Shown here: one piece after another, positions 1,676-47,821 of the stretch
How positions within the stretch are numbered: the first letter of the stretch is position 1
How the letters are laid out: each line of letters starts with the position of its first letter
Source: Thermoplasmata archaeon
GTDB lineage: Archaea > Thermoplasmatota > Thermoplasmata > Thermoplasmatales > GCA-001856825
DNA: 64,000 bases
Assembly (NCBI GenBank): GCA_021787125.1
Contig: JAJYMI010000076.1
Location: forward strand, 264 to 64,263
Reading direction: 5' to 3'
Translations under genes and position numbers: made by a program
The notes under the pieces: generated by a model
What the model was told of the DNA's origin: nothing
Database searches by the model: none
Seen by the model: only the letters and a program-made list of their open reading frames with translations

Positions 1676-1679
1676 CGAT

Positions 1680-29634: not shown

Positions 29635-29679
29635 ATCTTCTAAAACCTGACCGGTGGTAGTGTCTCTCGGCGTCGTACT

Positions 29680-30540
29680 TCACACCCCCTTCATACCAAT
29701 GACCTCATTTACTGGGCCTCTCTTTGTTCCCACACAGTTTATGAATCTTGGAACTTTTACAATTCTCAACGAAAATCCTAACTTTTTGTACAATTTCAAT
29801 ATCCTATCAGTAGCCTGATTTGTGATCACTGTCGGAACTGAGAGTTCAGCCGTCCATCGTGCCACTCTTTCTTGGTCTTGCCACGTAAAACCATCAGCAG
29901 AATATTGACGGAATTCCACGTCGTATGGAGGGTCGACATATATGAAGTCATCTTGACGTATTTTGAGGGTGGAAAAGTCCCCAGAAGAGAATTTCCAGTT
30001 CTTCAGTAATTGTGTATAATCGCTGAAATCAGTTGCGTAATTAATGGTCTTGTACCTTCCAAAAGGTACATTGAAGAGACCTGAAGAGTTGAATCTACAC
30101 AAACCGTTGTAACCAGTATGATTGAGATAATAGAATAGTTGGGCCGCCTCTTTCGATTTCCATTTTCCTTCCTTGACGAGGTCGTTAAACCTCTGTCGGT
30201 TTTTGTAATAACTTTCCTTGCTGTTTTCCATAGTGATGTCTACTCCTAGTTCAGACCTCACTTGGTTATAGAAATTTATCAAGTGAGGGTTCACATCATT
30301 AAGAAGAGCCTTGTTAGGTCTTAGCCCAAATGTTACTGCGAGTCCACCACAAAGAGGCTCAACAAGCCTAGATTTAGAGTGTTTTTGCCACAGAGGCTCG
30401 AGATGAGGAACCAACCATCGTTTTCCACCAGCCCACTTCAGTAGCGGTCTAATCTTAACCTCTTCTTTCGATTTATCAGTAGGAGTGTCACCAGAAAAGT
30501 TCAACTTAGTCTGGGATAAGCTATGGGAATAGTCTTCCAC
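29680..30540 (-). CDS. Dam-type (D12 class) N6-adenine DNA methyltransferase
   Basis: LLKWAGGKRWLVPHL and FIYVDPPYD motifs. Confidence 0.85.
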   Translation of the reverse strand: MEDYSHSLSQTKLNFSGDTPTDKSKEEVKIRPLLKWAGGKRWLVPHLEPLWQKHSKSRLVEPLCGGLAVTFGLRPNKALLNDVNPHLINFYNQVRSELGVDITMENSKESYYKNRQRFNDLVKEGKWKSKEAAQLFYYLNHTGYNGLCRFNSSGLFNVPFGRYKTINYATDFSDYTQLLKNWKFSSGDFSTLKIRQDDFIYVDPPYDVEFRQYSADGFTWQDQERVARWTAELSVPTVITNQATDRILKLYKKLGFSLRIVKVPRFINCVGTKRGPVNEVIGMKGV

Positions 30541-30593
30541 TATCTAATATATGGGCAGAAATATTAAAGGTTACTTTTGGGTGTACTCTTTTA

Positions 30594-32627: not shown

Positions 32628-33968
32628 CTATCCTGCTTCCCTTAGATTGTCTACAACGATCTTGGGGTCGATTTTATAGCCGTCCTTATCCAATCTCTCA
32701 ACTCCTCCCTCGAGTACCAATATTTTGAAAGTTTCGACTGACGCTTTACGTTTGGCTTGGGATTCTTTAGGAGGTATGCCGTCCTCCCATATGTCCTTGG
32801 CCATCTTCTCATAGCTCTTAATGTTCAGTCTCGAGTGATGTTTCAGTATGATGTCTTTGTGAATACGCCAACCTTTACCCTCTATCAGATTTCGGTTCTT
32901 TACAGTCTTCTTTTTTCTTCTTTCCTCCACCATGTATGAGATCTTAAGCGCATGCTCTGCTTCTTTTGGTCCGGCTCTCTCGAGTATTCGGCTCATCCAT
33001 GACGGTCTATTAACATTGAATCTATCAATAGCCGTCGTATAGGGTTCTTCTTCGGGGTGATGTCTCGTATACGGCAGGAGTGAATAAATGGCGATCGTTT
33101 GCCCCTGTCTCAATGAAGATGCGAGCTCAATTATCTGTCTCCAATACTGAGGAGTGACGTTCACCAATGCAGCCATGTTCTCGTAGGTACTTCTATGTAT
33201 GATCTTGACTGGAGACTCCCTTATTACTGAGTCGATAGAGCTAGGCTTGATAACGTTGAATATGGGCCATGTGCTTTCGTGGCGTACTTTCCAAACCTTG
33301 AATGCAAGAAATAGGTTCTCTGAAGACATTCCTCGTCTCGAGTTGCCGGCCTCAAATCCCTCGTTGAAATAGAGGATCTTCCTCCTGGAGTTCTGGGGCC
33401 AGTCGTCAGGGTTCTTGGGATCAAACTCGAAGTGTTCTGTCAGGGCATCGCTAAACTCAGTAAGCTCTTGGTCGTTTATCTCCGGGTGCATTTCAATGAT
33501 AGTTTCTGTAATGGCGTCTGCGTCTCCGTAGACGTGCATTTCGCAACCCTCCTTAAACTCCTTAAGGTATCGCCAAAGCTCGAAACCTAACGACCAACCG
33601 GTATTGGTCTTCCCGGAACCCCAGTCTCCAAAGATTACGATAGGCGTAGGCTGCAACTTTATTATCTTCAGTACTCCGTTCGAATACGGGAGGAAAATGG
33701 AATAGTTGTACGAATCAGCAATGACTCCAGCCCGTCCGTCTTCGTCCAATATGAACCACTCTTTGAACTGACGGCTTAAGTTGTCTATGGCGTGCTCAAA
33801 CAGATCCAGGCTGTTTGTCTTCAGTAATTTGTTTTTGAGTAGGTCGGTTTCCTCACTTCTCACGCGATCAAAGATTGCCGGGTCTCCAAACTGGCCAGGC
33901 CACAACATGCGTTGTTTGAATAGCCAATGCTCTTCGTCAGGGTTATAAAAACCTGCCTCACCTGACAC
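32628..33968 (-). CDS. P-loop NTPase, 446 aa (candidate packaging/assembly ATPase)
   Basis: Walker A IVIFGDWGSGKTNTG and possible Walker B KILYFNEG. Confidence 0.6.
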   Translation of the reverse strand: MSGEAGFYNPDEEHWLFKQRMLWPGQFGDPAIFDRVRSEETDLLKNKLLKTNSLDLFEHAIDNLSRQFKEWFILDEDGRAGVIADSYNYSIFLPYSNGVLKIIKLQPTPIVIFGDWGSGKTNTGWSLGFELWRYLKEFKEGCEMHVYGDADAITETIIEMHPEINDQELTEFSDALTEHFEFDPKNPDDWPQNSRRKILYFNEGFEAGNSRRGMSSENLFLAFKVWKVRHESTWPIFNVIKPSSIDSVIRESPVKIIHRSTYENMAALVNVTPQYWRQIIELASSLRQGQTIAIYSLLPYTRHHPEEEPYTTAIDRFNVNRPSWMSRILERAGPKEAEHALKISYMVEERRKKKTVKNRNLIEGKGWRIHKDIILKHHSRLNIKSYEKMAKDIWEDGIPPKESQAKRKASVETFKILVLEGGVERLDKDGYKIDPKIVVDNLREAG

Positions 33969-35163
33969 TTTTCTTTTCGCCGTCCTTTATCTCGAGACTG
34001 CTCAACATTACTTGCTCAATAAGGCTAGTAATTCCGAGAACGAACTTATCCCAGTTCTCAGCTCTTCCCCACATCGAGAACTCGAGAGAAAACGTCATTG
34101 AGCTAGAATCGAGACTGATTGTTATGTCCTGGTATCGGTCCTTGATGGCACCGATAGTACCCTGTCTTACGACTTTACCTGATTCAAACTTGGGCCCAAA
34201 GTAGATTCTCTTATCGGAACGATCTCCTGGGTAGTAAGCGTCGCTGGTCAGTAGGTTTCCGGTACCCAGATATTCCATCGACGAGCGTTTGAGTCTAGAA
34301 TATAGGGTCTCTCCTCCGTTCTGTCTGAGGATTAGCGGCCATGTGATTACTCCGTAATTTGTAACTAGCGTCAGGTTTGCGGACCCTTCAGGGAATTTGC
34401 TGTATTTTTCCTTGGTTACGATAACTTCCCCCGTCTCCTCATCAGCAAGGACAGACCACAGTTTACCGGTTCTGACTGAAATGAGAGGGAGTTCTTCATC
34501 TGACCGATTTTGCCCAGTGTCGTTTTCTGCAGAGGCCACAGCAACATCTGTCAGTTCCATAAGAGTTTGGTCTCCTTGCGCCTTCTGAGGTTCCTTAACC
34601 GATCTTATATGTTCCTCCAGTTCAGTCTTGAGTTCTGAGATTTCCCTTTGTGCATTCTCCATGCCCTCCTTGATGTTTTTGTTCAGCTCTTCTTTCAATT
34701 GGCCTATTGCTTTGACTACAGAGCCATAGTCTTGCCCCTCAATATGCAGCTTCTTTATTAGTTCCTCTCCGTGCTCTTCGTAGTATCTATAAGCGGCCTC
34801 CTCTAGCGCCTCAGAGTCGGTCTCTGCTTTCCTTTCGTACATTTCTATCATTTTGTCCTTCGGGTCACCCCTCTTTATTTCCTCAGTTATGGAACCTACA
34901 ACCTTTCCTTTTACATCATTGAACACCGCCGGATCCATGACGTTCTCTGGTTTTTCTATGCTCTCATCGGCAAATGCTTCGGCGACCCCTCTAAACATAA
35001 CGAGCTTATCTAGATCCAGGCTTGTCACAAAATCTCCGAATCTGGGGCAAGCCTCCAGGAATTCATCATAACCAAGTTTATTCAGGGTCCTAATGAGAAG
35101 GGTATAGTTAACGTTCAGTTTCTTGTCGTAGCCAGTGTCAGGTATGCCGTCACTCGTAGACAT
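33958..35163 (-). CDS. Hypothetical 401-aa protein with central coiled coil
   Basis: ORF track. Overlaps both neighbours. Confidence 0.55.
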   Translation of the reverse strand: MSTSDGIPDTGYDKKLNVNYTLLIRTLNKLGYDEFLEACPRFGDFVTSLDLDKLVMFRGVAEAFADESIEKPENVMDPAVFNDVKGKVVGSITEEIKRGDPKDKMIEMYERKAETDSEALEEAAYRYYEEHGEELIKKLHIEGQDYGSVVKAIGQLKEELNKNIKEGMENAQREISELKTELEEHIRSVKEPQKAQGDQTLMELTDVAVASAENDTGQNRSDEELPLISVRTGKLWSVLADEETGEVIVTKEKYSKFPEGSANLTLVTNYGVITWPLILRQNGGETLYSRLKRSSMEYLGTGNLLTSDAYYPGDRSDKRIYFGPKFESGKVVRQGTIGAIKDRYQDITISLDSSSMTFSLEFSMWGRAENWDKFVLGITSLIEQVMLSSLEIKDGEKKSVR

Positions 35164-36007
35164 CTTCTATGACCCTTTTACTTGAGGACCTTCTGACAAA
35201 GTAGTAGATAGTTCCAAGTAGAAACACTATTATCATCACGTCCCCTATCACGTTTTCAAACCACACTGACCCGTAGGGATTTGGCACGTTCCCGAACGTA
35301 TAGGTGAGGGGAGGGCCCGAAAAAATGTCCTGCTGGATGTTTACCCCTGCTGAGTTGAGCCATCCCCATTTGTCCATTACATTGACTACGACCGTTTCTC
35401 CCTCATTGGAAGGCGTGAAAGTCATATTCGTTGTGTTGAACACGCCAACGGTCTGGGAGCTTCCTCCGGGGAACTGGTAAGAAATTGTGACCTGAAAGGG
35501 GTAGGATTGGTTGGCTTTACCCGTTGTGTTGAGCATATCTGAATGAAAAATGAACTCTCCGTTGCTGAGGAAGAGTGCGGTATACGGAACCGGGGGAGGG
35601 GAGACGAGGAAATTCGTGGTAATAGGACTGCAGTTCTCCCCGTTAGTTGTGAAATACACCTGAAGGGAGTAATAACCCTGCTCGATACCATTCAGGTAAT
35701 AGGTCAGAATTTCGCCGTTAGGAGCGGTGATCGTTCCACTCTCTATCTTGGACCCGTTATTATCATAGATGGAAAGGTAGTATGTTAGGGCAGAACTCTG
35801 GGGAATGTTCTCTATTGCAAAGATCCCCTCGATTTGGACATAAATGCTCGTGTTCTCTATGTACATAGGTGCCACGTTTACCCTCAAGACATTTTCCTGG
35901 CTCTGTGCAGGTACGGAACTAAGAGAGAATATTCCAATAATGGCCATTATTGCAATTAAGGAGATTGCTCTATTTCTTGCCTTTCGAAGATTCATCGCTG
36001 GTTCCAC
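35150..36007 (-). CDS. Secreted/type-I membrane protein, 285 aa
   Basis: Signal-like AISLIAIMAIIGIFSLSSVPAQSQ and C-terminal TM VMIIVFLLGTIYYFV. Confidence 0.55.
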   Translation of the reverse strand: MEPAMNLRKARNRAISLIAIMAIIGIFSLSSVPAQSQENVLRVNVAPMYIENTSIYVQIEGIFAIENIPQSSALTYYLSIYDNNGSKIESGTITAPNGEILTYYLNGIEQGYYSLQVYFTTNGENCSPITTNFLVSPPPVPYTALFLSNGEFIFHSDMLNTTGKANQSYPFQVTISYQFPGGSSQTVGVFNTTNMTFTPSNEGETVVVNVMDKWGWLNSAGVNIQQDIFSGPPLTYTFGNVPNPYGSVWFENVIGDVMIIVFLLGTIYYFVRRSSSKRVIEDVYE

Positions 36008-36752
36008 CTCTCGTCAACCTAAGGGTATCCTGTATCAACTCGATGCTCGGTGCATATCTTATGCGCAGTTCCCGCTCTAGCTTCTGACTGTAAATCTTCA
36101 GGTCCCTGTTTTCCTTCTGGAGTGCAAGTATCTCCCTGACCTCGCCGGTACCAAGACCCTCAACCACGATCAAGCTAGGTCTTCTCCCCGGCTCTATAAT
36201 GAGGTCACTTGCCTCAATGTAGTAGGACAGTCCCTTCTTCCTGACGTAGGCTTTGTAAACGGTGACTGGCTGCTTGCCTAGGTTCCGGATCAGATAGAAG
36301 GAAATCAGTCCTCTATCGGGTCCCCTGACCTTGTAGTACCAGTGGTTCTTTCCTTCAAACACCAGAACTGGTTTCCAAAGGGTACCAGGACCCCAGGCCA
36401 ACAGGAGAATAATCAACCCAATCCATAAGGGCAGAAAGGTCATCCTTTGCCAGAGGAAGCCGGATATCAGCAGTTCCCCGTAATAGAATGCTCCCGGTAC
36501 TATCGTTGGATAAAGGAAAGCGACGTTGAGGACGAGGATAACTATAACCGCAAATACGAAAATTGCAAGCCAGTTGATCTCCTTGTAGTATTCCCCTTCG
36601 GGACTCGCTCCCATGTCCACTGATCGCCGTTCCAACCTGTTCTTCCTCAGGTCCCTGTTCCTCCTGTGGCTCTGCGAATATCTTATTCTCCAGAAAAAGA
36701 AAACAACTGCAGCAATCACAGCTGCAACCAACACCAAGAGTTCCATATTCAC
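35970..36752 (-). CDS. Polytopic membrane protein, 260 aa
   Basis: Several hydrophobic helices (LLVLVAAVIAAVVFFFW, WLAIFVFAVIVILVLNVAFLY, FLPLWIGLIILLLAW). Confidence 0.55.
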   Translation of the reverse strand: MNMELLVLVAAVIAAVVFFFWRIRYSQSHRRNRDLRKNRLERRSVDMGASPEGEYYKEINWLAIFVFAVIVILVLNVAFLYPTIVPGAFYYGELLISGFLWQRMTFLPLWIGLIILLLAWGPGTLWKPVLVFEGKNHWYYKVRGPDRGLISFYLIRNLGKQPVTVYKAYVRKKGLSYYIEASDLIIEPGRRPSLIVVEGLGTGEVREILALQKENRDLKIYSQKLERELRIRYAPSIELIQDTLRLTRGGTSDESSKGKK

Positions 36753-36753
36753 T

Positions 36754-37119
36754 TCAGATCACCTTCAGCCGAAAGAGGACGGAAGCTACAGAAACCAGAA
36801 CAAGGGAAACTGAGGTCCAGAATACTACATGAGAAGTTTTGTCCATTAGCAGACGTTCTTTGACTTTTTTGGGCCTCTCGTCGCCCAAGTAATAAATCAA
36901 GGTCTCGCAGTCCTTCTCTATCTCCTTAAGAGTTTTGTTCAAGACCAGATCCTGTGCAAGTTGAATCTCGATTCCCAGGAGCTTTGCTATCTCCCCTATC
37001 CAAATATCCCTGTTGTCCCGGATTCTCTTGTATTCATCAGCGTGAGCCTTCAGGGTAGTCTCACGCTGCCTCTCTATCGATAACTCGTCGTTTTCCTGAA
37101 AAATGTCAGTGGAATTCAC
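36754..37119 (-). CDS. Hypothetical 121-aa tail-anchored membrane protein
   Basis: C-terminal TM VVFWTSVSLVLVSVASVLF. ATGA overlap with the upstream gene. Confidence 0.5.
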   Translation of the reverse strand: MNSTDIFQENDELSIERQRETTLKAHADEYKRIRDNRDIWIGEIAKLLGIEIQLAQDLVLNKTLKEIEKDCETLIYYLGDERPKKVKERLLMDKTSHVVFWTSVSLVLVSVASVLFRLKVI

Positions 37120-38066
37120 GCCTCGCCCTTCTCAAGTTTGCTGAAATCTATCGACTCGTCAGCCCATCTTACTGCATCCTGCCAGCTTCTCTCGGTCGTT
37201 CCCACCCTTGTGACTCCGTCGCCCCGCTCAGACGCTGCCTCCCTCAGGTGTGATTTTTCCTCCTTCAGAAGATCCGGGTTCACGTGGACGAAATAGATGT
37301 CGTGATAGCTTCTAGGACCTTTTTCAACGTTGAATCCTATTGACATGACGTATCTGTCCTTATCAAAGAAGTCAGCAATCTCCCCTCCGGGGTTCACCCT
37401 GATCTTGGCGTTGAGGGGGATCTTCAGGCCGTCCTTCGTCTTGGCCCTGTCCCTGACCCTTCCGATCTCCCTGACCAGCCGGTTGTAGTTCTCCCTGTTG
37501 TGGGCCCGTTCCTGTTCTTGTTTCGTTTTCGACACTTTCGATTTTGGTCTCTTCCTCAGTTCCTCAAGAAATTTCTCCCAGGATTCTGTGTCTCCAATGT
37601 CTTGATAGCCCTCCCTGTAGCGCTTAAGGTCTTCCTCCGTCACAGCATCTGGATGTTTCTTTCTCCACTCGTCTGCCTTTGATGTGAACTCTGCATAGTC
37701 CCCTCCACTTCCCAACGGCTTGTGTTCAGGAAGCTCGGATCCAGGTTTCTCAATCTTCCCTGGTTCCACTTTCTGTCTGCTCTCCTTGGGCACTTCTGGA
37801 GTTTTGTATGTCGCTTCTACTATTTCCTTAGGCCGGGACCGAGAATGCGTTATGCTCAGGATTCTTCCCCCCTTCAAGATGGATTCGTAAGGTGCGTAGA
37901 GCCTCAGTCTCCTGTTTGTCTCTATCAGCCTTGTCCTTTTCCCCTTATCCCTCAGTCTCTTGACATCTTTCTCTGCCTTCCTCCTGGATTCACCATAGGG
38001 TCTGCGTTTGTTGATCGGATAGACCTTCCTTCTCTCGCCTCTCCCCTTGCTTCTAAATTCTGTCAT
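37116..38066 (-). CDS. FRxKGKG-N-terminus family member 1 (316 aa, highly charged)
   Basis: MTEFRSKGRGERRKVYPINKRRPYG. 4-nt overlaps with neighbours. Confidence 0.6.
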   Translation of the reverse strand: MTEFRSKGRGERRKVYPINKRRPYGESRRKAEKDVKRLRDKGKRTRLIETNRRLRLYAPYESILKGGRILSITHSRSRPKEIVEATYKTPEVPKESRQKVEPGKIEKPGSELPEHKPLGSGGDYAEFTSKADEWRKKHPDAVTEEDLKRYREGYQDIGDTESWEKFLEELRKRPKSKVSKTKQEQERAHNRENYNRLVREIGRVRDRAKTKDGLKIPLNAKIRVNPGGEIADFFDKDRYVMSIGFNVEKGPRSYHDIYFVHVNPDLLKEEKSHLREAASERGDGVTRVGTTERSWQDAVRWADESIDFSKLEKGEA

Positions 38067-38806
38067 GGTGTCGCCTCCAGCCCATCGACAAGGCGTTTGT
38101 ACCTGTCCGGGACATTGTACTTTATCTCCTCTTTCAGCTTCTTCTCGTCGTTCGCATACATGCCCCAGAGCGAGTCCTTGACTTCCCCTCTATCTTTGAT
38201 GACGAAACCGTAAATCTCTCCCATCAGGTACTGATTGTAGGTCTTGATCTCCTCCTCTAGGACTTTCCTCGCTTTGCTGACTGTTTGTGGGTCTACCTGG
38301 CCGTACTCTTTCTCGATCTGCTGTATAGTCGCGTAGATATAACCGGTGGCGCTGTCATCCCCTGTCTCGCTTATCTTGGCGCCCCATCCACCGTAATCGT
38401 GGAACGCGACGGGGATTTCCACCGCAATGTCCTTGCCGTCGAAGTACCCGCTTTCGGGACTCGTTGCTTCCTTGAAGTCTTCCTTGCTTGCATATGGATT
38501 TTTGTCTCCGAGGTTGTACTCGCGGTTCCATATCAGCATCGTGCCTAGGTTGTCCCATTCCCTGGGACTTTCTGGCGAGACGTCCCTGTATACCTTCAGG
38601 GACAAGTTGCCCTGCCTTGCAACGTAAACCGGCCCCCTTCCCAAGATCTTGTCTCTCTGGTCTTCCAACTCTTCTATCCTGTCCAGCGCTTGCGTGTATA
38701 CTTTGTACGAAACCAGCTTCCCCTTGCCTTTCCCGCTAAGTGTCTTTCCCATGAGAGGGTAGACCTTCCTGTCCCTGCCTTTTCCTTTGCTCCTAAAATC
38801 CGTCAT
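38063..38806 (-). CDS. FRxKGKG-N-terminus family member 2 (247 aa)
   Basis: MTDFRSKGKGRDRKVYPLMGKTLSG. Confidence 0.6.
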   Translation of the reverse strand: MTDFRSKGKGRDRKVYPLMGKTLSGKGKGKLVSYKVYTQALDRIEELEDQRDKILGRGPVYVARQGNLSLKVYRDVSPESPREWDNLGTMLIWNREYNLGDKNPYASKEDFKEATSPESGYFDGKDIAVEIPVAFHDYGGWGAKISETGDDSATGYIYATIQQIEKEYGQVDPQTVSKARKVLEEEIKTYNQYLMGEIYGFVIKDRGEVKDSLWGMYANDEKKLKEEIKYNVPDRYKRLVDGLEATP

Positions 38807-39339
38807 TTCATCCTCTCCTTTGTTATCTTCACTTCTCCATATGCGATGTTTTCTAGAGCACGGGCTTCCGCATCCTTCGCTTGGCTGAGCGTGAGATTGG
38901 AATCTAGAACTGTCCTGACTCCGTCCCGTTCATAGATCACCTGATATCTGCCCTTCTGCCTGTGGGCCCTAGATATGAACCGGTCGTAGTCTCCCTCGGT
39001 GACTGCCGATTCAGCAAGACCCCTCCATCCCCTCCTGATCTTGGATTCGATAGCCTTCCTCACGTCCATTTCGGATGCGTTGTCACTCTCGTAGCTCCCA
39101 ATACTGAACAGTGCTATCTCCCTTCCTTCAGTATCGTAAGCGTGGATGTAGTGGCCGCCAAACCAGGCCCAATAGGCCCTCGTTACTGGATCCCTTTGCG
39201 CAATCTTGGCGCCTTTGATCTCACTCCTCAGGTTTGACGTCAGCCTGGAATTGGAAGGGGTTTTTCCGAGCATTCTCCCTTGTGAAATAGGGAACACTTT
39301 TCTTCCCTGGCCCTTCCCCCTGGTCCTGAAGTCCGTCAT
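38803..39339 (-). CDS. FRxKGKG-N-terminus family member 3 (178 aa)
   Basis: MTDFRTRGKGQGRKVFPISQGRMLG. Confidence 0.6.
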   Translation of the reverse strand: MTDFRTRGKGQGRKVFPISQGRMLGKTPSNSRLTSNLRSEIKGAKIAQRDPVTRAYWAWFGGHYIHAYDTEGREIALFSIGSYESDNASEMDVRKAIESKIRRGWRGLAESAVTEGDYDRFISRAHRQKGRYQVIYERDGVRTVLDSNLTLSQAKDAEARALENIAYGEVKITKERMK

Positions 39340-39590
39340 TTCGTATCCCTCGTCCTGGGACTCTTGCCCTTGAATCCCCAGCTGTCGAAGTTCTCTTTAT
39401 TCCGCCTGTTTCGTCTCTGCCTTGGCGATATGTTTTCCCATCTCCTTTCCCCGATCTCTGCATTCCTGTGCCATTCCTTTCTGTCCTTCTTTGTGATCTT
39501 CCTGCGTTTCCCATTGATGGGGACGACGTATTTGCTTCCATTCTTGAAAACTGTTCTAAATTCCATTTTTTTCACCTCCTCTCTCGACAT
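39336..39590 (-). CDS. FRxKGKG-N-terminus family member 4 (84 aa, very basic)
   Basis: (MSREEVKK)MEFRTVFKNGSKYVVPINGKRRKITKK. The internal Met at 39566 may be the true start. Confidence 0.5.
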   Translation of the reverse strand: MSREEVKKMEFRTVFKNGSKYVVPINGKRRKITKKDRKEWHRNAEIGERRWENISPRQRRNRRNKENFDSWGFKGKSPRTRDTK

Positions 39591-39906
39591 CCGTCCTGTT
39601 CTTCGTGATCCAACTGCCTATACCAGAAATAACCCACCTTGGGCCTAGTTTAGTTGGAACTATTGACCCGTTAACCTGGTACTTGCTCCCGTCCGGGGTC
39701 CTGGCCACTAAATCAAAATCTCCGCCCCGTCTATAGAACGCTGCTTCGCTGATAGAGCGTCCTTTAATATCGTAGTAGAACCATTCCTCTTTGGTTTCCT
39801 TATAAGCTGACCTCAATTCCTTTTCAACGGCGTGTCTCCTTACGGCCTCGAGGCCCATAGCCGGACTCATACACAATCCGGTATATTCCTGGTCTCCCTC
39901 CTCCAT
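39556..39906 (-). CDS. 116-aa ORF; a fifth copy of the family motif lies upstream of its first ATG, in a frame open to 40053
   Basis: Own translation of 40053-39907: TARFITKKDRNGKNRHIPIGNAGHRRRDPYGYNNVAQATLKVSPPAKSG, then MEEGDQ. There is no ATG, GTG or TTG in that stretch. Confidence 0.45.
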   Translation of the reverse strand: MEEGDQEYTGLCMSPAMGLEAVRRHAVEKELRSAYKETKEEWFYYDIKGRSISEAAFYRRGGDFDLVARTPDGSKYQVNGSIVPTKLGPRWVISGIGSWITKNRTDVERGGEKNGI

Positions 39907-40045
39907 GCCGCTTTTTGCCGGAGGGCTAACTTTTAGTGTAGCCTGGGCTACGTTATTATACCCGTATGGGTCCCGTCTTCTATGTCCCGCATTGCCGATT
40001 GGAATGTGCCTGTTCTTTCCATTTCTGTCCTTCTTTGTAATGAAT

Positions 40046-40578
40046 CTAGCCGTCTACTATCACCTCCGGGTTTTGCCGGTGGCAAGATCTGAAGACCAAG
40101 TCCCTGTCAAGGAGTTTCCAGGTAAACCAGGCAGTCAGGAACCAGCTTCCGCTGTCCCTTCCGTCGGGAGTCATGAAATTGACTCTCCTGTCTGGGATCA
40201 ATAGAGAAACACCGTGGGAAGCAAACAGGGTCTGTCTCCTTTTTCCCTCCAGTGTCGTCAAAGGGAGCAGAAACGCAAACGGTTTTCCCAGGGAATACGC
40301 TCTCTCCAGAAACTCATCCTTGAGGGAATACGGCGGGTTAGTGATGATGACGTCGAATTCCTCTGGCTGGAATTTCAAGAAGTCATAGCCTTCGTTGATG
40401 TCGCTCGCAACCACCCTGAATCCCTTATCTTCCAGGGCCCTTCTCAGGTATCCTTCCCCGCTCGCCGGTTCCCAGACAGTCCAGTCCTGGTCCAGGTAGG
40501 GAAAGAGGATGGAGAGAGCTGACGGGGGCGTCTGGTAATCGTCAAGTCCTCCCTGTTTCTGGGCCACCAGGGTCTTCA
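40046..40578 (-). CDS. Orphan N6-adenine DNA methyltransferase (phage-type, ~177 aa)
   Basis: YQTPP, VWEPASGEGYL (motif I) and DVIITNPPYS (motif IV). Preferred start is GTG 40578, a GTGA overlap with ORF 40576-40782. The ORF-track extension to 40747 is low-complexity. Confidence 0.75.
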
Positions 40579-40782
40579 CAAAATCACCCCGATGAATTTT
40601 TTCAGCGAGGAGATGATGTTGCTCAGGTTGAATCCGAAGTGGACCAGTATCAGGATGAAGATCAAGACGACAACTAGGGCTGCAACACCGTCCAGGACCG
40701 CCCCTCCGTCCTCCCTGAAACTGGATAGTATTATTTTCCTGGTCCATGGCCCGAATGCCCCCTTCATAGTATTCCTCCCCAA
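40576..40782 (-). CDS. Small membrane protein, 68 aa
   Basis: TM helix VAALVVVLIFILILVHFGF. Overlaps both neighbours. Confidence 0.45.
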   Translation of the reverse strand: MGRNTMKGAFGPWTRKIILSSFREDGGAVLDGVAALVVVLIFILILVHFGFNLSNIISSLKKFIGVIL

Positions 40783-42377
40783 CTTGTCACGGCTGAGAAC
40801 AGCAGAGACCAGTTCACGAATGACAGGATTATGAGCGCGAAGGCTGCAACGTAATGTGTCGGAATGTAGAAACCGCTATTTCCAAGGCCTCTTTCCGCCT
40901 TCCTGACCATCTGTGCTTCTATCCCTGACCTGTGGATTGACCATAGCAGAATGCCAACTCCTGCTACCAGGAACAGTGCATTGATCGGTGAAATGAAGGG
41001 CTCGACAAACCAGGAGACCTTGTCTTGAAACAGGTTCCCTCCCGTGCCGTTCTGATAGATGTTGGATTTCACGACCGAGGAAGCGTAGCTGTTGTTCCAC
41101 AGGTTGTAGGAGTTATGGCTTATTACCTCGACGTTCAGTTCTCCGTAGAATATATTTGAAAATGAGGGGAGCGAAAGATTTGTTCCCCTCGTCACGTTGT
41201 AGGGGGCAAAGTAATACAGCACGTTTTCATAGGAGGGATTGGGAACCGTATAGGGGTCGTTGCCGTACCATACGGATATCTCAAGGTCAATCCATGAACT
41301 CTTGTTGTCCCTGGCAGTTATCGATATTTCCTCGTTTCCCCCCTGGGATGAGGGTTTGATGTAAATGTTGATAATCGGAAGCTTGTCCCCCGAAGTAACC
41401 GAGGTTGCGTTATTGTAGACAATGAAGCTGGTGCCGTAGTCAGTAATGCCTTCGTGGAACCTCCATCCGTAAACTCCGGATGGTGATGATGCAGAGAAAT
41501 TGTATTCAAGGCCGGCTGTACCTCCGGTCTCCTTGTAAGAGAAATTATAGTACGACAAGATCTGGACGTTGCTCGACGCGTTATCCGAAGGGTTGTTGTT
41601 AAGGTAATGGACAAACGAAGCGTTCCATTCTCCTGCGCTGAAGGACCAGTTCAGGAATGCGTGTGTGTCAACACCCAGGGAATCTACCACAGAAGTTGGT
41701 TTTCCCGAGACATGAGAATTGAGAGCACCGAATTCCCCCTCTCCCAGGTAGATGGATTCATACCCCTCGAACTGGCCTATCATATTGTATTCCGCCGTCT
41801 GGAATACTATGTAGAAGGGCCCCGAATTTGCTGAAGTTGGAATGAAGACGGGTACAGTATAGCTCTTTATGCTGGTAGAGGTGGATACATTCTGCTCCAG
41901 GGTCGTGCCGTTCTGGACGTAGAATATTCTAATGGGATGTCCTGACAGGTAGCTTATCGCGCCCGAACCAATCCCGGTGCCCAGAGAAGTGCCCGAGGGA
42001 GCTCCCAGTCTTGTTGCGCCATCTCCGGGAATTGGAAGCAACCATGCCAGTCCGGGATAGCTCTCAACGGCGGACCAGTTGATGGAGAACTGGACAGTTA
42101 TTCCCTGTACCACCTCCTGCCCGTTCTGGTAGAAATCTCCGTACAGGAACTGGTATGGATAATCCACTGCCCCAACCTGGTATGCCTGGTTTATTCCCCA
42201 GGACGCGGAAAACCATTTGCCTATTCCAGAAGGAGATCCTCCCCAGCTTGTTGCCTGGGGATCGGGCTCGAATGTGCCCATCTCAATGCTCGGAGGAGCG
42301 AAAGCGAGAGCAGTCAAGGGCATTGCCGAAAGTGCAATCACAACGGCAAGAATTATTGGCACAAGCTTTGCCTTCAC
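40764..42377 (-). CDS. Secreted protein, ~537 aa, C-terminal TM anchors
   Basis: Preferred start is GTG 42377 (GGAGGA upstream, GTGA overlap with the upstream stop), giving signal peptide VKAKLVPIILAVVIALSAMPLTALAFA. The ORF-track extension to 42719 overlaps the upstream gene and reads as Arg/His-rich nonsense. Confidence 0.65.
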   Translation of the reverse strand: MKAKLVPIILAVVIALSAMPLTALAFAPPSIEMGTFEPDPQATSWGGSPSGIGKWFSASWGINQAYQVGAVDYPYQFLYGDFYQNGQEVVQGITVQFSINWSAVESYPGLAWLLPIPGDGATRLGAPSGTSLGTGIGSGAISYLSGHPIRIFYVQNGTTLEQNVSTSTSIKSYTVPVFIPTSANSGPFYIVFQTAEYNMIGQFEGYESIYLGEGEFGALNSHVSGKPTSVVDSLGVDTHAFLNWSFSAGEWNASFVHYLNNNPSDNASSNVQILSYYNFSYKETGGTAGLEYNFSASSPSGVYGWRFHEGITDYGTSFIVYNNATSVTSGDKLPIINIYIKPSSQGGNEEISITARDNKSSWIDLEISVWYGNDPYTVPNPSYENVLYYFAPYNVTRGTNLSLPSFSNIFYGELNVEVISHNSYNLWNNSYASSVVKSNIYQNGTGGNLFQDKVSWFVEPFISPINALFLVAGVGILLWSIHRSGIEAQMVRKAERGLGNSGFYIPTHYVAAFALIILSFVNWSLLFSAVTSWGGIL

Positions 42378-44611
42378 TGCTTCCTCCTCCCCCTGTTTTC
42401 CGGGTTTACGAAATAGGAGAGTGCCCATCCCGCAAGGAGGAATATCATGGAGATGAGAACGAATAGGGGCCAGTTCTGCTGGACGTAGGTTACCACCGTA
42501 TTGTTGTTGTATATTGTCGTGCCTGTTCCGGTGGTTATATTCTCGAACGGCACCGATATGGTGACGTTCCTGCCGTTGACCGTCAGGGTCCCGGAGGACA
42601 GGCCTGTGTAATATCCTGCGGACTCTATGGTGAAGAAGGACGTGCAGTTTGCGAAATGGAAACTTACGCTCCGGGAAGTGGAGTTTACTGCAAGCTCTCC
42701 GCTGATGTTGACCCACCACTTTGCTCCATCCGGAAGTCCATTTTCAGTGAATGTTACAAGATAGGTGACCAGTGAATATGGCACATCCTCTGATACGGGT
42801 GAACCATCCACCTTGAAGGAACCTGAACTTGCAGGGGTGGAATAAAGCTTGTTGGGAGTGGAGATGGATATTGAGTAAGTGCCGTTTGGCAGGGACAAGG
42901 CGATCACCGAAGAACTGGATGACGCCGGTGTCTGTCCGGACACGTTTACGTACCATCTAGTCCCCCCGGGTAACCCCGACTCGGTAAACGTGACCGGGTA
43001 GGTAATCTCCGAGAAACTGACCGATTGCGAGGTTGCAATGCCCCTGATCATAAAAGATCCTGAATCGTTTGAGGGCCTGTCCACCTTATAGTTGGTCGCT
43101 ATCGAATAGGCATATGTGCCGTTTGGCTCAGAGAAAGTCAATGAGTTTACCTCATAGGGTTCATGGAACGACTGCCCGGTTGTGGAGACATTCACGAACC
43201 AGTCGCCGGACGAGAGCCCCGATTCGTTGAATGTCACGGAATAGGTGACCTCGGAAAAGGTGACGGAGTCTGAGTACGGTGAGCCATTCACGGTGAATGA
43301 TCCTGAAGAAGTGGACGGGCTGTACTCCTTGTTTCCTGTAGCAATCGAATACGAGTAACTTGAATTTGGAAACTGGGATGATATGGTCGATGTTGCTGAA
43401 GACAAAGAGCTCTGACCGGAGACGTTCAAATACCATTCTGTTCCAGAAGGCAGCCCCGATTCCGTGAACGTGACCGAGTATGTCACCAGCGAGAATGAGA
43501 TCGATTCCGGAACGGATGAACCGCTGACTGTCAGGGTGCCGGACGAGGGAGAAGGAGAATATTGTTTGTCGACAGTCTGGACTGAATAGGGATATGACCC
43601 ATTCTGTAGTGGTACTGTGTAGGACGGGGAAGTCAGGGCTCCCGATGAAGGCTGGCCTGTGATGTTGACATACCATTTCGTTCCTGTGGGAAGGCCTGAC
43701 TCAGTAAACGTGGCAGAATAAGTCGGGATGGAGACAACTACACTGTAATGGATTGTGTAAGAGGCAACGTTGTTGTTTGCAAAATCAGCATCGAACGTTA
43801 TGGACGAAACGGTTGACGACCCGGTAAATACCCCGGACGTCTGCACGTTCTGGCTGAGAGAGTTGTAGGATGCATTTGTTGTCTTCTGTGCCGTCCAGTT
43901 AAGGGTGAACCCGCTCGAACCTGATACCGATGGAATGGTAAACGATGACGAAACGGATTTGTAATTGTAGGTCCAGCCCCAGTCGAGACCCTGCACCGAA
44001 TGTATTGCCGGCTGAGATGCCACCTCAGTGATGGTGTCCGTATATGCTACAGTGGTGCCTGCATAATTCCCGTTTATCGTGTAGAAATAATATCCAGATA
44101 GGGGAGAACAGGTTATGTTCAGAAGCGTCACAACGGATCCGGAGGGAACGTTCCAAAAGGGATCGAACAGGACGTAGGAACTGCTGGAGGTCTCGTAATT
44201 GATAGTGGCGGACCAGGAGTAAATGACCCCGTTTGCAGTAATGTTGGCCCAGACGGTGCCAATGTTGTAGTTCCCTCCTCCCTCGCTCTCTATAGGTATG
44301 AACAGTTCCCCGGAGCTATGGAAGTTCACTGTTCCGTTGTAGGTATACTCCGGGAAACCGACAGCCCCTCCCAGTGACAGGGGATAGCTCAGCCTGTAAT
44401 ATTCCGAACCGGAGGTATCCCATGATTTGGCTTGTGCTCCGGAAATGGTCTGATTCCACGACGAAGATGTGGAATTGTTTGTTGCCCACATTTTCAACGT
44501 TACAGTCTGTGGAACCGGCCATGCCGTGGCATCGACCGTCGGCGGTATCAACGAGATGGAGGACACAAGGAGCAGAGCAACGAGTATGATGGCTTTGTCC
44601 TTTGATTTCAT
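42374..44611 (-). CDS. Secreted surface protein, ~745 aa, five tandem ~80-aa FTESGLPxGTxW repeats, C-terminal TM
   Basis: Preferred start is ATG 44611 (GGAGGA upstream, ATGA overlap with ORF 44608-45123), giving MKSKDKAIILVALLLVSSISLIPPTVDA. Repeats begin YSATFTESGLPTGTKWYV, YSVTFTESGLPSGTEWYL, YSVTFNESGLSSGDWFV, YPVTFTESGLPGGTRWYV and YLVTFTENGLPDGAKWWV. Confidence 0.7.
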   Translation of the reverse strand: MKSKDKAIILVALLLVSSISLIPPTVDATAWPVPQTVTLKMWATNNSTSSSWNQTISGAQAKSWDTSGSEYYRLSYPLSLGGAVGFPEYTYNGTVNFHSSGELFIPIESEGGGNYNIGTVWANITANGVIYSWSATINYETSSSSYVLFDPFWNVPSGSVVTLLNITCSPLSGYYFYTINGNYAGTTVAYTDTITEVASQPAIHSVQGLDWGWTYNYKSVSSSFTIPSVSGSSGFTLNWTAQKTTNASYNSLSQNVQTSGVFTGSSTVSSITFDADFANNNVASYTIHYSVVVSIPTYSATFTESGLPTGTKWYVNITGQPSSGALTSPSYTVPLQNGSYPYSVQTVDKQYSPSPSSGTLTVSGSSVPESISFSLVTYSVTFTESGLPSGTEWYLNVSGQSSLSSATSTISSQFPNSSYSYSIATGNKEYSPSTSSGSFTVNGSPYSDSVTFSEVTYSVTFNESGLSSGDWFVNVSTTGQSFHEPYEVNSLTFSEPNGTYAYSIATNYKVDRPSNDSGSFMIRGIATSQSVSFSEITYPVTFTESGLPGGTRWYVNVSGQTPASSSSSVIALSLPNGTYSISISTPNKLYSTPASSGSFKVDGSPVSEDVPYSLVTYLVTFTENGLPDGAKWWVNISGELAVNSTSRSVSFHFANCTSFFTIESAGYYTGLSSGTLTVNGRNVTISVPFENITTGTGTTIYNNNTVVTYVQQNWPLFVLISMIFLLAGWALSYFVNPENRGRRKQ

Positions 44612-45123
44612 ACCCACTTTCCATCCTCCTTCAGGCTGATGTGGTATCCTGCAGAATATGTGACCGCGAATGCAAATATCAAAAACAAAGCAACGTACCA
44701 GGCCCATGCCCCAATCGGGGAAATCTTGGCAGCCTGGAAACCATCCGATCCCGAAAGGAAAGGAGCACCATCTATCAAATTCCTGAATCCAAGCACTGTT
44801 GCTGCTATGTTGGTATAGAGCGGCTCTGGGTAGAAGAGCAGGATCAATATGGATACCGAGACGAAAAGAGTACCCGAGCTGAGGACAAAGAACATCTGCC
44901 AAGGCACGAGGCTTCCCGTGATGTTGGTGGCTCCCCAGAACCATGAAATGGTGGAATGAATTACTGTTCCTCCGAAAATTGCGGTTGAAACGATTATTCC
45001 TATCTCGTGGATCGCACTGGTGACTATGGTAAAAGTCAGGAACGCCAGAACTGCAATCAGCAGCATTTCCAAAAGGGGCATATCGCCCAGATTCTGGCGG
45101 GACCTGAGCTCGGATGATCTCAT
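44608..45123 (-). CDS. Polytopic membrane protein, 171 aa
   Basis: ORF track alternative frame with four or five clear hydrophobic helices. ATGA overlaps at both ends support this frame over the 934-aa extension. Confidence 0.6.
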   Translation of the reverse strand: MRSSELRSRQNLGDMPLLEMLLIAVLAFLTFTIVTSAIHEIGIIVSTAIFGGTVIHSTISWFWGATNITGSLVPWQMFFVLSSGTLFVSVSILILLFYPEPLYTNIAATVLGFRNLIDGAPFLSGSDGFQAAKISPIGAWAWYVALFLIFAFAVTYSAGYHISLKEDGKWV

Positions 45124-47816: not shown

Positions 47817-47821
47817 TCCCC

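What the first reader, a model, noticed from the sequence alone, without database searches (positions are those of the whole stretch)
37116..40053. Five tandem genes share a basic N-terminal tag F-R-(S/T)-K-G-K-G-x-x-R-K-V-Y-P-(I/L) but diverge completely afterwards
The five N-termini are:
- MTEFRSKGRGERRKVYPI (38066)
- MTDFRSKGKGRDRKVYPL (38806)
- MTDFRTRGKGQGRKVFPI (39339)
- MEFRTVFKNGSKYVVPI (internal Met of ORF 39336-39590)
- RFITKKDRNGKNRHIPI (40047-39997 region)

Protein lengths range from 84 to 316 aa, with unrelated C-terminal regions. A conserved roughly 20-aa N-terminal module on consecutive, otherwise different proteins suggests a shared targeting, packaging or nucleic-acid-binding signal, for example incorporation into a particle or recognition by one partner. 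I do not recognise the motif from any described family.
Basis: seen in the sequence. Interest (0 to 1): 0.6.

Follow-up and report, generated by a model that had tools for sequence, protein, structure and literature searches.

The report
Shared N-terminal tag on archaeal mobile-element proteins
Neighbouring genes of an integrated virus-like element in an acid-loving archaeon all begin with the same 18-residue basic peptide, which also heads at least 31 unrelated protein families in related elements. It looks like an undescribed address label for a common target, but that target is not identified.

Summary

**In the window**
- Four consecutive, translationally coupled minus-strand genes (g1-g4) start with M-(T)-[ED]-F-R-[ST]-x-G-x-G-x-x-R-K-V-[YF]-P-[ILV].
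- A fifth gene (g5) has a divergent variant, RFITKKDRNGKNRHIPI. Its start codon here reads ACG; homologues have ATG or GTG.
- Past residue 19 the five proteins share no detectable similarity.

**Not a recent duplication**
- Six to eight of the 18 tag codons differ synonymously between copies.

**Elsewhere**
- A 19-position tag profile found 85 clusters among 1.84 billion representative proteins, 84 of them genuine.
- Every genuine match sits at the N-terminus, or at an internal Met.
- At least 31 unrelated protein families follow the tag. They include PCNA-fold clamps, ArdC-like proteins, fusellovirus VP2-like DNA-binding proteins and a GNAT.
- Hosts are Thermoplasmatota and Nitrososphaerota mobile elements, some resembling spindle-shaped viruses.

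**Known families and structure**
- Pfam, PHROGs, NCBIfam, PADLOC and PDB have no matching family.
- AlphaFold2 predicts a beta-hairpin.

**Interpretation**
- My best reading, inferred at about 0.4, is a portable docking peptide. It would bring accessory proteins to the element's DNA or particle for co-delivery, like the T4 capsid-targeting sequence.
- A plain DNA-binding arm or a host-hub motif remain live rivals.

The parts
37116..38066 (-). g1, 316 aa. Layout: type-1 tag (38013-38066, MTEFRSKGRGERRKVYPI), then the rest of the 'family A' N-domain (to about aa 62), a disordered linker (aa 71-122), and a C-terminal alpha/beta domain of unknown fold.
   Evidence: ORF. Homologues and the conserved first ~62 aa. 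AF2 model with hairpin E4-7/E14-17, H28-40, E45-51 and E56-61. No significant fold match.
38063..38806 (-). g2, 247 aa. Layout: type-1 tag (38753-38806, MTDFRSKGKGRDRKVYPL), a roughly 40-aa Gly/Lys-rich linker, then a domain widespread in phages and archaeal viruses (aa ~60-245).
   Evidence: phrog_6186 at 1.8e-9. tblastn hits in Bacillus and Ruegeria phages and in a Nitrosopumilaceae spindle-shaped virus begin at query aa 60-70. Those genes start at that point and lack the tag.
38803..39339 (-). g3, 178 aa. Type-1 tag (39286-39339, MTDFRTRGKGQGRKVFPI) followed by a body that matches no known family.
   Evidence: One tagged homologue cluster, P0100.
39336..39566 (-). g4, 76 aa, very basic. Variant tag (39516-39566, MEFRTVFKNGSKYVVPI). 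The start is preceded by GGAGGTGA.
   Evidence: Identical to P0001. Upstream sequence. Relatives with similar variant tags occur in other elements, such as MTQFRTVKKNGKKRVIPI in L014.
39556..40053 (-). g5, 165 codons if read from 40053. Type-2 variant tag at 39997-40047 (RFITKKDRNGKNRHIPI). The homologous start codon is ACG here (40051-40053), and the first ATG is at 39906 (116 aa).
   Evidence: In one search, GGAGGTGA lies 6 nt upstream of the ACG.
40046..40579 (-). N6-adenine DNA methyltransferase directly upstream of the tagged genes. The true start is probably the GTG at 40579, so the listed 233-aa ORF is over-extended.
   Evidence: phrog_799 at 8e-42, with a weak Eco57I/N6_Mtase match. 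The L001 homologue is 178 aa and starts with GTG.
40576..40782 (-). 68-aa hydrophobic protein upstream of the methyltransferase. It could be a capsid or membrane protein; this is inference only.
   Evidence: Conserved in L001 and L017 (fam13). No Pfam family.
32628..37119 (-). Downstream part of the same tightly coupled operon: a 121-aa protein, a 260-aa membrane protein, a 285-aa secreted or anchored protein, a 401-aa protein and a 446-aa Walker-A ATPase. None carries the tag.
   Evidence: fam14-17 shared with L001. Walker A motif. The ATPase family is rare, with 3 clusters.
40764..49306 (-). Upstream part of the element: four large secreted, NxS/T-rich proteins with C-terminal anchors. None carries the tag.
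   Evidence: Homologues in L001 and L017 (fam7, fam12).

Best explanation
**What it is**
- The tag is a portable, strictly N-terminal docking peptide of about 18 residues.
- It is predicted to form a basic, amphipathic beta-hairpin, usually joined to the protein behind it by a flexible linker.
- Mobile elements of acidophilic archaea place it in front of many unrelated accessory proteins. These elements include spindle-virus-like proviruses and the unclassified integrated element in this window.

**What it most likely does**
- It most likely brings all these proteins to one common site. I favour the element's DNA and assembling particle, so that the proteins travel with the genome into the next cell.
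- This is how T4 internal proteins use their shared capsid-targeting sequence.

**Shown**
- The module exists and is under purifying selection at the protein level.
- It is always N-terminal.
- It sits on at least 31 unrelated protein families.
- It recurs several times per element.

**Inferred**
- The hairpin structure (AF2 only).
- The existence of a common partner.
- The identity of that partner (DNA, capsid or membrane, or the assembly ATPase).
- Packaging and delivery.
For: **1. Protein-level selection, not recent duplication**
- Between g1, g2 and g3, 6-8 of 18 codons differ synonymously.
- Nucleotide identity is 69-74% in the tag against 30-35% in the next 54 nt (repeat D1).

**2. Distribution**
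- The degenerate DNA pattern gave 10 genuine hits in Thermoplasmata and 'Thaumarchaeota' MAGs, each directly after a Met. It also gave 3 chance bacterial hits, none at an ORF start.
- The exhaustive profile search found 85 clusters at E<=1e-3, of which 84 are genuine.

**3. Strict N-terminal position**
- The tag starts at residue 1-3 in 111 of 121 tagged proteins.
- In every other case a Met, or a Val that may be a GTG start, sits at the tag start.

**4. Modularity**
- 31 unrelated families follow the tag.
- Phage and virus homologues of the g2 body lack the tag and linker.
- Type-1 and type-2 tags are interchangeable in front of the same domain.

**5. The tagged proteins are of kinds known to travel with, or act on, incoming DNA**
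- Fusello_VP2_Capsid (2.3e-19 and 1.1e-18). VP2 was purified from SSV1 particles and binds DNA (PMC3367457).
- ArdC-N plus MPTase-PolyVal, a weak match.
- PCNA fold.
- DUF3560.

**6. Virus-like context**
- The ATPase of the second element type is homologous to a protein of the lemon-shaped virus LSV-48N (3e-19; PMC12714723).
- Tagged genes sit between large secreted proteins and small hydrophobic proteins.

**7. Structure**
- AF2 places strands at residues 4-7 and 14-17 (pLDDT about 74; weaker).
- The cross-strand pair 5/16 varies as R/Y, Y/R or I/I among variants. This count is noisy.

**8. Precedent**
Against: - There is no direct evidence that any tagged protein is in a particle, or that the window's element makes particles.
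- IMG/VR scans found the tag in no viral contig, and GenBank viruses and plasmids have none.
- No partner was identified. The two element types share no detectable protein family apart from tagged ones.
- L028 has a tagged VP2-like gene but no family A protein. An element-encoded receptor common to all elements is therefore not apparent.
- Several tag variants coexist within one element (window, L001, L018). This fits a generic ligand such as DNA better than a specific receptor.
- VP2-like and PCNA-like proteins already bind or encircle DNA, so they would not need a DNA-hitchhiking tag.
- The AF2 confidence for the hairpin is only moderate.
Confidence: 0.4

Rival explanations
1. The tag is a self-contained nucleic-acid-binding arm. 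This basic beta-hairpin would simply raise the affinity of each protein for DNA or RNA inside the cell, for example at replicating or incoming element DNA. It would have no role in packaging or delivery.
For: - The tag has a net charge of about +4 over 18 residues. Basic residues are conserved on both predicted strands and in the loop.
- Many tagged proteins are DNA-related: PCNA fold, VP2-like, ArdC-like, Zn-ribbon-like.
- Different tag variants coexist within one element, which a sequence-independent ligand tolerates.
- The tag is nearly identical in otherwise unrelated element types. That fits a universal ligand.
Against: - Known DNA-binding arms, such as AT-hooks and the tails of chromatin proteins, occur at either end, internally and in repeats (my own knowledge). 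This tag is single-copy and N-terminal in all 84 genuine clusters.
- The invariant F4 and P17 and the near-invariant G8, G10, V15 and Y16 point to a specific fold or pocket rather than charge alone.
- No nucleic-acid-binding family matches the tag.
Confidence: 0.25
2. The tag is a short linear motif that hijacks a conserved host hub. Candidates include host PCNA, the Cdc48/VAT unfoldase, a chromatin protein or the cell-division and budding machinery. All the element's accessory proteins would then be recruited to that hub.
For: - The tag is nearly identical across element types that share no other proteins, as expected if the partner is host-encoded.
- The variant M-V-R-F-I-[ST]-K resembles the N-terminal APIM PCNA-binding motif of human ALKBH2 (M-D-R-F-L-V-K). 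This is my recollection, not a test.
- The tag is joined by a flexible linker, as short linear motifs usually are (and sequence inspection).
Against: - The dominant type-1 sequence E-F-R-S-K does not fit APIM ([KR][FYW][LIVA][LIVA][KR]) or the PIP box.
- The most common tagged protein is itself a PCNA-fold clamp.
- The tag occurs in two phyla, Thermoplasmatota and Nitrososphaerota, whose hub proteins differ.
- No interaction was tested.
Confidence: 0.12
3. The tag is an assembly or hairpin-exchange element. In family A it is the first hairpin of a beta-beta-alpha-beta-beta domain. Copies on other proteins would dock in trans onto that domain, or onto each other, and so load accessory proteins onto the clamp-like family A protein as a tool-belt.
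For: - Family A always pairs the tag with the 45-aa alpha/beta remainder.
- In the AF2 models the tag hairpin is less confident (pLDDT 61-74) than the rest of the domain (83-90).
- Most elements encode one family A protein plus several tag-only proteins.
Against: - L028 has a tagged VP2-like gene but no family A protein in the 19.8 kb examined.
- g1 in the window has no clamp domain.
- No multimer prediction could be run.
- The similarity to AbrB swapped-hairpin domains is not significant.
Confidence: 0.1
4. The conservation acts at the nucleotide level. The 5' coding region would serve as a translation-initiation or coupling element, a regulatory RNA, or a recombination site, and the peptide itself would be incidental.
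For: - The genes are translationally coupled by ATGA overlaps, and the tag codons are purine-rich.
- A conserved 5' block could promote cassette shuffling by recombination, as has been proposed for T-even internal-protein loci (my own knowledge).
Against: - Amino acids are conserved through many synonymous changes: 6-8 of 18 codons.
- The degenerate, amino-acid-based pattern finds the tag in distant genomes with different codons.
- Rfam finds no RNA family in the region.
- Recombination may explain how the tag spreads, but not why the peptide is conserved.
Confidence: 0.03

Closest known systems
Capsid targeting sequence (CTS) of T4 and T-even internal proteins (IPI, IPII, IPIII, Alt)
   Same: - It is a short conserved N-terminal peptide on otherwise unrelated proteins, often encoded in tandem.
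- The proteins are diverse and often anti-defence.
- The signal directs them into the particle for co-injection with DNA (PMC3012670).
   Different: - There is no sequence similarity.
- The T4 CTS binds the scaffolding core of an icosahedral prohead and is removed by the prohead protease. No scaffold, protease or cleavage site is evident here.
- The elements here are archaeal and spindle-virus-like or unclassified.
- Packaging is not shown.
Cargo-loading peptides of encapsulins; encapsulation peptides of bacterial microcompartments
   Same: Short, portable terminal peptides that send diverse proteins to one shell. They are encoded next to the shell genes.
   Different: Those peptides are mostly C-terminal or helical and bind a defined shell pocket. 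No shell protein is known here, and the tag is a basic hairpin.
N-terminal marker domains of polymorphic effectors (for example MIX, FIX and RIX of type VI secretion effectors)
   Same: A conserved N-terminal module combined with many unrelated C-terminal domains. This pattern was used to discover new effectors.
   Different: Those domains are larger, bacterial and tied to a known secretion machine. No secretion system is associated here.
SpoVT/AbrB swapped-hairpin domain (N-terminal hairpin ...G-R-V-V-I-P-I-E-L-R-R...)
   Same: - Local resemblance of R-K-V-Y-P-I-N-K-R to G-R-V-V-I-P-I-E-L-R.
- The family A N-domain has the same beta-beta-alpha-beta-beta order.
   Different: - The resemblance is not significant: hhalign probability 0.5% over 16 columns.
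- There is no Pfam or PDB match.
- In g2-g5 only the first hairpin is present.
Polyvalent proteins, ArdC, and packaged or co-transferred anti-restriction proteins of phages and conjugative elements
   Same: The tagged set includes ArdC-N plus MPTase-PolyVal, DUF3560 and methyltransferase-adjacent genes. These are domain types typical of proteins delivered with incoming DNA (my own knowledge).
   Different: In polyvalent proteins the domains are fused into one giant protein. Here they are separate small proteins, each with its own tag.
Basic beta-hairpins of archaeal chromatin proteins (Sul7d/Sso7d N-terminus V-K-F-K-Y-K-G-E-E-K-E-V)
   Same: An N-terminal aromatic and basic hairpin with a Gly turn.
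   Different: In Sul7d the hairpin is part of an SH3-like barrel, whereas here it stands alone. The similarity is recalled, not tested.

Membership tests
Any curated protein family (Pfam-A, PHROGs, NCBIfam, PADLOC) | The family model matches the tag region above, or near, the family threshold. | tested here: not met
   No hit covers residues 1-20 of g1-g5 or of the family A consensus.
SpoVT/AbrB swapped-hairpin domain | Sequence or profile similarity to AbrB-like domains. | tested here: not met
   - hhalign of A7 against A8 gave probability 0.5% and E 0.12 over 16 columns.
- Pfam PF04014 was not hit.
- PDB profile searches found no AbrB or MazE chain.
SpoVT/AbrB swapped-hairpin domain | Beta-beta-alpha-beta-beta topology that forms a dimeric interleaved barrel. 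| tested here: inconclusive
   AF2 gives that strand and helix order for the family A N-domain only. Dimerisation cannot be tested. g2-g5 lack the second half.
T4-type capsid targeting sequence | N-terminal, conserved, on otherwise unrelated neighbouring genes. | tested here: met
T4-type capsid targeting sequence | Sequence homology to the T-even CTS. | tested here: not met
   tblastn of the tag plus family A N-domain against 50,697 phage records found nothing meaningful. No PHROG matches.
T4-type capsid targeting sequence | Directs proteins into the particle and is removed by a maturation protease. | not testable with these tools
   This needs particle proteomics and N-terminal sequencing.
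Sec, Tat or class III (pilin-type) signal peptides | A hydrophobic h-region of 10-20 residues after a basic n-region. | tested here: not met
   Read directly from the sequences. Residues 1-40 of g1-g5 and of the 84 clusters have no hydrophobic stretch.
PCNA-interacting motifs (PIP box Qxx[LIM]xx[FY][FY]; APIM [KR][FYW][LIVA][LIVA][KR]) | Match to the consensus. | tested here: not met
   By inspection. Type-1 E-F-R-[ST]-K fails APIM positions 1, 3 and 4. Only the rare R-F-I-[ST]-K variants come close. No PIP box is present. The consensus sequences are from memory.
AT-hook | R-G-R-P core. | tested here: not met
   Absent from all tag variants.
Fusellovirus VP2 family (PF25632) | Match to the Pfam model. 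| tested here: not met
   - None of g1-g5 matches.
- The model matches only the part after the tag in P0118 (aa 32-100, 2.3e-19) and the L024 292-aa protein (aa 31-100, 1.1e-18).
- The tag is therefore not part of VP2.
PCNA / sliding clamp (for family A proteins of other loci, not g1) | Two-domain clamp fold. | tested here: met
   - The AF2 model of P0037 was searched with Foldseek against the PDB. The top 50 hits are all PCNA or 9-1-1, with best E 3.4e-7 and probability 1.0.
- There is a weak NCBIfam sliding-clamp match at 1.3e-4.
- The g1 C-domain gives no such match.

The most novel reading that the evidence does not exclude
This would be the first cargo-targeting signal described for archaeal viruses or virus-like elements. 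An 18-residue N-terminal hairpin would be enough to load arbitrary proteins (clamps, anti-restriction proteins, DNA-binding proteins) into spindle-shaped or pleomorphic particles, or onto the transferred DNA. It would define the set of proteins these elements deliver into a new host, and it could be used as a packaging tag.
Probability: 0.3. Interest if true: 0.8.

Novelty: new variant of a known kind. Interest (0 to 1): 0.68.

Why it matters
- Almost nothing is known about how archaeal spindle-shaped and pleomorphic viruses, or related integrated elements, choose the proteins that accompany their DNA, or which proteins act first in a new host.
- A sequence label shared by at least 31 otherwise unannotated protein families gives a direct way to list that accessory set in metagenomes.
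- It links orphan genes to one process and gives experimenters a short peptide to test by pull-down, reporter fusion and DNA-binding assays.
- It shows that virus-encoded PCNA-fold clamps, ArdC-like proteins and VP2-like proteins in acidophilic archaea belong to one tagged system.
- If the tag proves to be only a DNA-binding arm, it is still a new, compact nucleic-acid-binding motif.

Tried and rejected
- **Recent local duplication:** rejected because of the synonymous divergence and the wide distribution.
- **Known domain:** Pfam, PHROGs, NCBIfam, PADLOC and PDB sequence and profile searches were all negative for the tag.
- **AbrB swapped-hairpin homology:** hhalign was not significant.
- **Structured RNA:** Rfam found none.
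- **IMG/VR viral contigs:** the type-1 and FYTD-variant patterns each gave 0 hits.
- **GenBank phages and archaeal viruses, and PLSDB plasmids:** no match to the tag plus family A domain.
- **Family A as universal receptor:** weakened by L028.
- **Window ATPase as a clue to element type:** no phage match and only 3 homologue clusters. It shares only the Walker A motif with the type II ATPase.
- **Attachment-site repeats flanking the element:** no exact repeat of 13 nt or more between 26.0-29.5 kb and 48.8-51.5 kb. No tRNA gene in the window.
- **Equivalent shared N-termini in related viruses:** none in the lemon-shaped virus LSV-48N or the Nitrosopumilaceae spindle-shaped virus.

Full report
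**1. What is in the window**

The finding lies inside a block of genes that all read on the minus strand, from about 49.3 kb down to 32.6 kb. Its G+C content (0.46-0.52) is higher than that of its flanks (0.36-0.44). The gene order is:
- four large secreted, NxS/T-rich proteins;
- a 68-aa hydrophobic protein;
- an N6-adenine DNA methyltransferase (phrog_799, 8e-42);
- the five genes of the finding;
- a 121-aa protein, two membrane or secreted proteins, a 401-aa protein and a 446-aa Walker-A ATPase.

Neighbouring genes overlap by 4-11 nt (ATGA or GTGA), so the operon is translationally coupled. The 76-aa product of g4 is identical to a protein from a 'Candidatus Thermoplasmatota archaeon' MAG. 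A closely related element from acid-mine-drainage metagenomes (L001-L006) has the same gene order.

**2. The observation**

- g1 (37116-38066), g2 (38063-38806) and g3 (38803-39339) begin MTEFRSKGRGERRKVYPI, MTDFRSKGKGRDRKVYPL and MTDFRTRGKGQGRKVFPI.
- g4 begins MEFRTVFKNGSKYVVPI at the internal ATG 39566. That start has a GGAGGTGA Shine-Dalgarno-like sequence upstream, which makes g4 76 aa.
- The fifth peptide, RFITKKDRNGKNRHIPI (40047-39997), is in frame with ORF 39556-39906 but has no canonical start in this window.
- An alignment with two related elements shows ATG (L001), GTG (L017) and ACG (window) at the same position, 6 nt after GGAGGTGA. Here the tagged form of g5 is either made from a near-cognate start or has been lost.
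- Without their first 19 residues the five proteins have no significant similarity to each other (best E 0.06).
- A tag HMM separates true tags (24-48 bits) from all other ORFs in 26 sequences (7.4 bits or less).
- A loose regex over all ORF starts of the window hits only these genes.

**3. Not a recent local duplication**

- The three strong copies are 69-74% identical in DNA over the 54 nt of the tag, against 30-35% in the next 54 nt.
- Six to eight of the 18 codons differ synonymously.
- Selection therefore acts on the peptide.

**4. Distribution**

- *Genome scan.* A degenerate DNA pattern for F-R-[ST]-[KR]-G-x-G-x-x-R-[KQR]-V-[YF]-P-[ILV] was run against one genome per archaeal and bacterial species. 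It gave 13 hits.
  - Ten are genuine. Each follows a Met directly. They lie in Thermoplasmata MAGs and on one 'Thaumarchaeota' contig.
  - Three are bacterial chance matches that are not at an ORF start.
- *Exhaustive protein search.* A 19-position profile of the tag was searched against 1.84 billion representative proteins. It found 85 clusters at E<=1e-3 (best 5e-9). One is an obvious false positive, a eukaryotic repeat protein.
- *Position.* Among all 121 tagged sequences collected, the tag starts at residue 1-3 in 111. In every other case a Met, or a Val that may be a GTG start, sits exactly at the tag start, so those are probably mis-called starts.
- *Annotation and taxa.* All are annotated 'hypothetical protein'. 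Taxon labels include Thermoplasmata, Cuniculiplasma, Nitrososphaerota and 'Parvarchaeota'.
- *Absent from reference collections.* Nothing was found in IMG/VR, GenBank phages and archaeal viruses, or PLSDB plasmids.

**5. Variants**

- A second type (R-[WF]-[IM]-[ST]-K-K-x-x-x-G-[KR]-x-[RK]-H-I-P-I) replaces type 1 in front of the same conserved domain in P0051 and P0052. P0011-14 (V-R-F-I-S-K-G-K-G-R-N-R-K-V-I-P-I) bridges the two types. The g5 peptide is therefore a true member.
- Other variants occur on fam10 proteins, which carry g4-like tags (MTQFRTVKKNGKKRVIPI).
- A tandem series on the Nitrososphaerota contig L018 reads MTQFYTDKDGKVRPI, MTKFFTDSQGRKRPI and ..GKFYTDGKGRKRPL, next to type-1 tags.
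- Several variants coexist within one element.

**6. What the tag is attached to**

After the tag is removed, the sequences fall into 31 unrelated families.

- *Family A (70 sequences), which includes g1.*
  - Only the first 62 or so residues are conserved: tag + PYG.sR..A...V..LR..G..ARLIETN..L.LYAPY.
  - AF2 predicts hairpin-helix-hairpin for this part.
  - Behind a disordered linker, most members carry a domain that AF2 and Foldseek identify as a PCNA-type clamp. The top 50 PDB hits are all PCNA or 9-1-1, with E 3.4e-7 and probability 1.0 (weak NCBIfam support).
  - One member has DUF3560.
  - g1 and seven relatives have a different alpha/beta domain with no significant structural match.
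- *The g2 body (aa ~60-245).* It is homologous to hypothetical proteins of Bacillus and Ruegeria phages, a Nitrosopumilaceae spindle-shaped virus and a Methanomicrobiales virus. Those genes start where the similarity starts, so they lack the tag and linker.
- *Other tagged proteins.*
  - Fusellovirus VP2-like proteins (P0118 at 2.3e-19; the L024 protein at 1.1e-18).
  - ArdC-N plus MPTase-PolyVal proteins, a weak match with the domains in the right order.
  - A GNAT acetyltransferase and Zn-ribbon-like proteins.
- VP2 was purified from SSV1 particles and binds DNA. VP2-like genes had been noted in acid-mine-drainage metagenomes (PMC3367457).

**7. The elements**

At least two element types carry tags.
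- *Type I* (window, L001, L017) has a rare ATPase family and remains unclassified.
- *Type II* (L014-16, L022-23, L028) has an ATPase homologous to a protein of the lemon-shaped Haloferax virus LSV-48N (3e-19; Zot-like 1e-5; relationships; PMC12714723). It also has very large secreted proteins and small hydrophobic proteins.
- The two types share no detectable families other than tagged ones.
- L028 has a single tagged gene, the VP2-like one, and no family A protein.

**8. Structure and chemistry of the tag**

- AF2 places strands at residues 4-7 and 14-17 around a G-x-G-x-x loop. pLDDT is about 74 in g1 and 61-63 in P0037.
- F4 and P17 are invariant. G8, G10, V15, Y16 and the basic positions are nearly so.
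- With that pairing, F4, S6, V15 and P17 would face one side and R5, K7, K14 and Y16 the other. This is my inference.
- Position pair 5/16 appears as R/Y in type 1, Y/R in the FYTD variant and I/I in type 2. That fits cross-strand contact, but the count is noisy.
- The tag is usually followed by a low-complexity linker.

**9. Explanation**

The facts to explain are these:
- a short autonomous peptide under protein-level selection;
- always at the N-terminus;
- present on many unrelated accessory proteins;
- present several times per element;
- nearly identical across element types that otherwise differ.

This is the signature of an address label that takes different proteins to one place. The closest precedent is the capsid targeting sequence of T-even internal proteins, which are otherwise highly diverse (PMC3012670).

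The types of protein behind the tag and the virus-like context make co-packaging or co-delivery with the element's DNA the most likely purpose. I give this 0.4.

Which molecule the tag touches is unresolved. Candidates are DNA, a capsid or membrane component, and the assembly ATPase. The coexistence of variants and the lack of a shared element-encoded partner favour a generic ligand such as DNA. The strict N-terminal position and the invariant F and P favour a specific pocket.

Rivals:
- a plain intracellular DNA-binding arm (0.25);
- a host-hub motif (0.12);
- hairpin exchange with the family A domain (0.10);
- a nucleotide-level signal (0.03).

**10. Comparison with known families, and novelty**

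- No curated family covers the tag.
- The resemblance to the AbrB hairpin is not significant.
- Signal peptides, PIP and APIM motifs and AT-hooks fail by inspection.
- The concept of a shared terminal targeting peptide on diverse proteins is known from phages, encapsulins and secretion effectors. This peptide, its hosts and its set of attached proteins are new. I therefore rate it a new variant of a known kind, with function still to be shown.

Noticed in passing
window 40051-40053 (minus strand): The start codon of g5 is ACG here, but ATG in L001 and GTG in L017 at the same aligned position. It lies 6 nt after GGAGGTGA, and the reading frame downstream is intact. Either the start is near-cognate or the tagged isoform was lost recently.
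   Followed up: yes
P0037 and relatives; L014-L017, L022, L023: Most homologues of g1's N-terminal domain carry a C-terminal PCNA-fold clamp ending ...GLIAPRME. This is a virus- or element-encoded clamp with a tagged 62-aa N-domain and a disordered linker. g1 itself has a different C-domain.
   Followed up: yes
L024:3727-4602 (-); L028:9471-9782: Fusellovirus VP2-like DNA-binding proteins carry the tag. In the 24-kb element L028 this is the only tagged gene, and it lies between an ATPase and small hydrophobic proteins.
   Followed up: partly
L018 (JAMCTX010000008.1, labelled Thaumarchaeota/Nitrososphaerota), about 570-5280: This contig has a tandem run of genes with a shorter variant (MTQFYTDKDGKVRPI, MTKFFTDSQGRKRPI, ..GKFYTDGKGRKRPL) beside type-1 tags. 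The motif family is therefore wider than the profile used, and it occurs in a second phylum.
   Followed up: partly
L015:5315-6325, L022:6150-7172, L023:5076-6077, L018:1255-2250, P0089: ArdC-like proteins (a weak ArdC-N match plus MPTase-PolyVal) carry either type-1 or type-2-like tags (MSEKWITKKNENGESKHI..).
   Followed up: partly
window 39465-39497 and 40009-40041: A 33-nt direct repeat, 82% identical, encodes ITKKDR in both places: in the body of g4 and in the tag of g5. It may be a trace of recombination between neighbouring genes.
   Followed up: no
window 40046-40782: The listed 233-aa methyltransferase ORF is over-extended. The likely start is the GTG at 40579, which overlaps the stop of a conserved 68-aa hydrophobic protein (40576-40782).
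   Followed up: partly
window 29251-32390 (minus strand): Three defence-type genes lie between the element's ATPase and an integrase-like gene (28142-28837): AIPR/AbiU-like (3.4e-26), a Dam-type D12 methyltransferase and a PD-(D/E)XK nuclease. They look like accessory genes carried by the element.
   Followed up: partly
window 3311-10170 (plus strand): A 1347-aa helicase matches DpdJ (1.3e-40), and a 380-aa protein matches DpdA plus DUF6884/DpdC-like. Together they suggest a Dpd-like 7-deazaguanine DNA-modification island.
   Followed up: no
window 42374-49306 (minus strand): Three large secreted proteins share repeated F-(T/N)-E-S-G-L-P-x-G-T-x-W-x-V modules and C-terminal anchors. No Pfam or PHROG family matches the two of them that were scanned against Pfam, or any of the three against PHROGs.
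   Followed up: no
L007/L008 (ENA k141_282313, k141_184032): A truncated 50-aa family A gene and a tagged 339-aa gene sit next to a serine recombinase (Resolvase) and host metabolic genes. This is a small integrated remnant or a different kind of element.
   Followed up: no
window 11937-17087, 20114-25741, 52105-52851: Other features of the window: a 1716-aa fusion of a GT2 glycosyltransferase and a SAM-methyltransferase, RmuC, an MmeI/Eco57I-like type IIG restriction-modification enzyme, and a HipA-like kinase (PDC-M66A).
   Followed up: no
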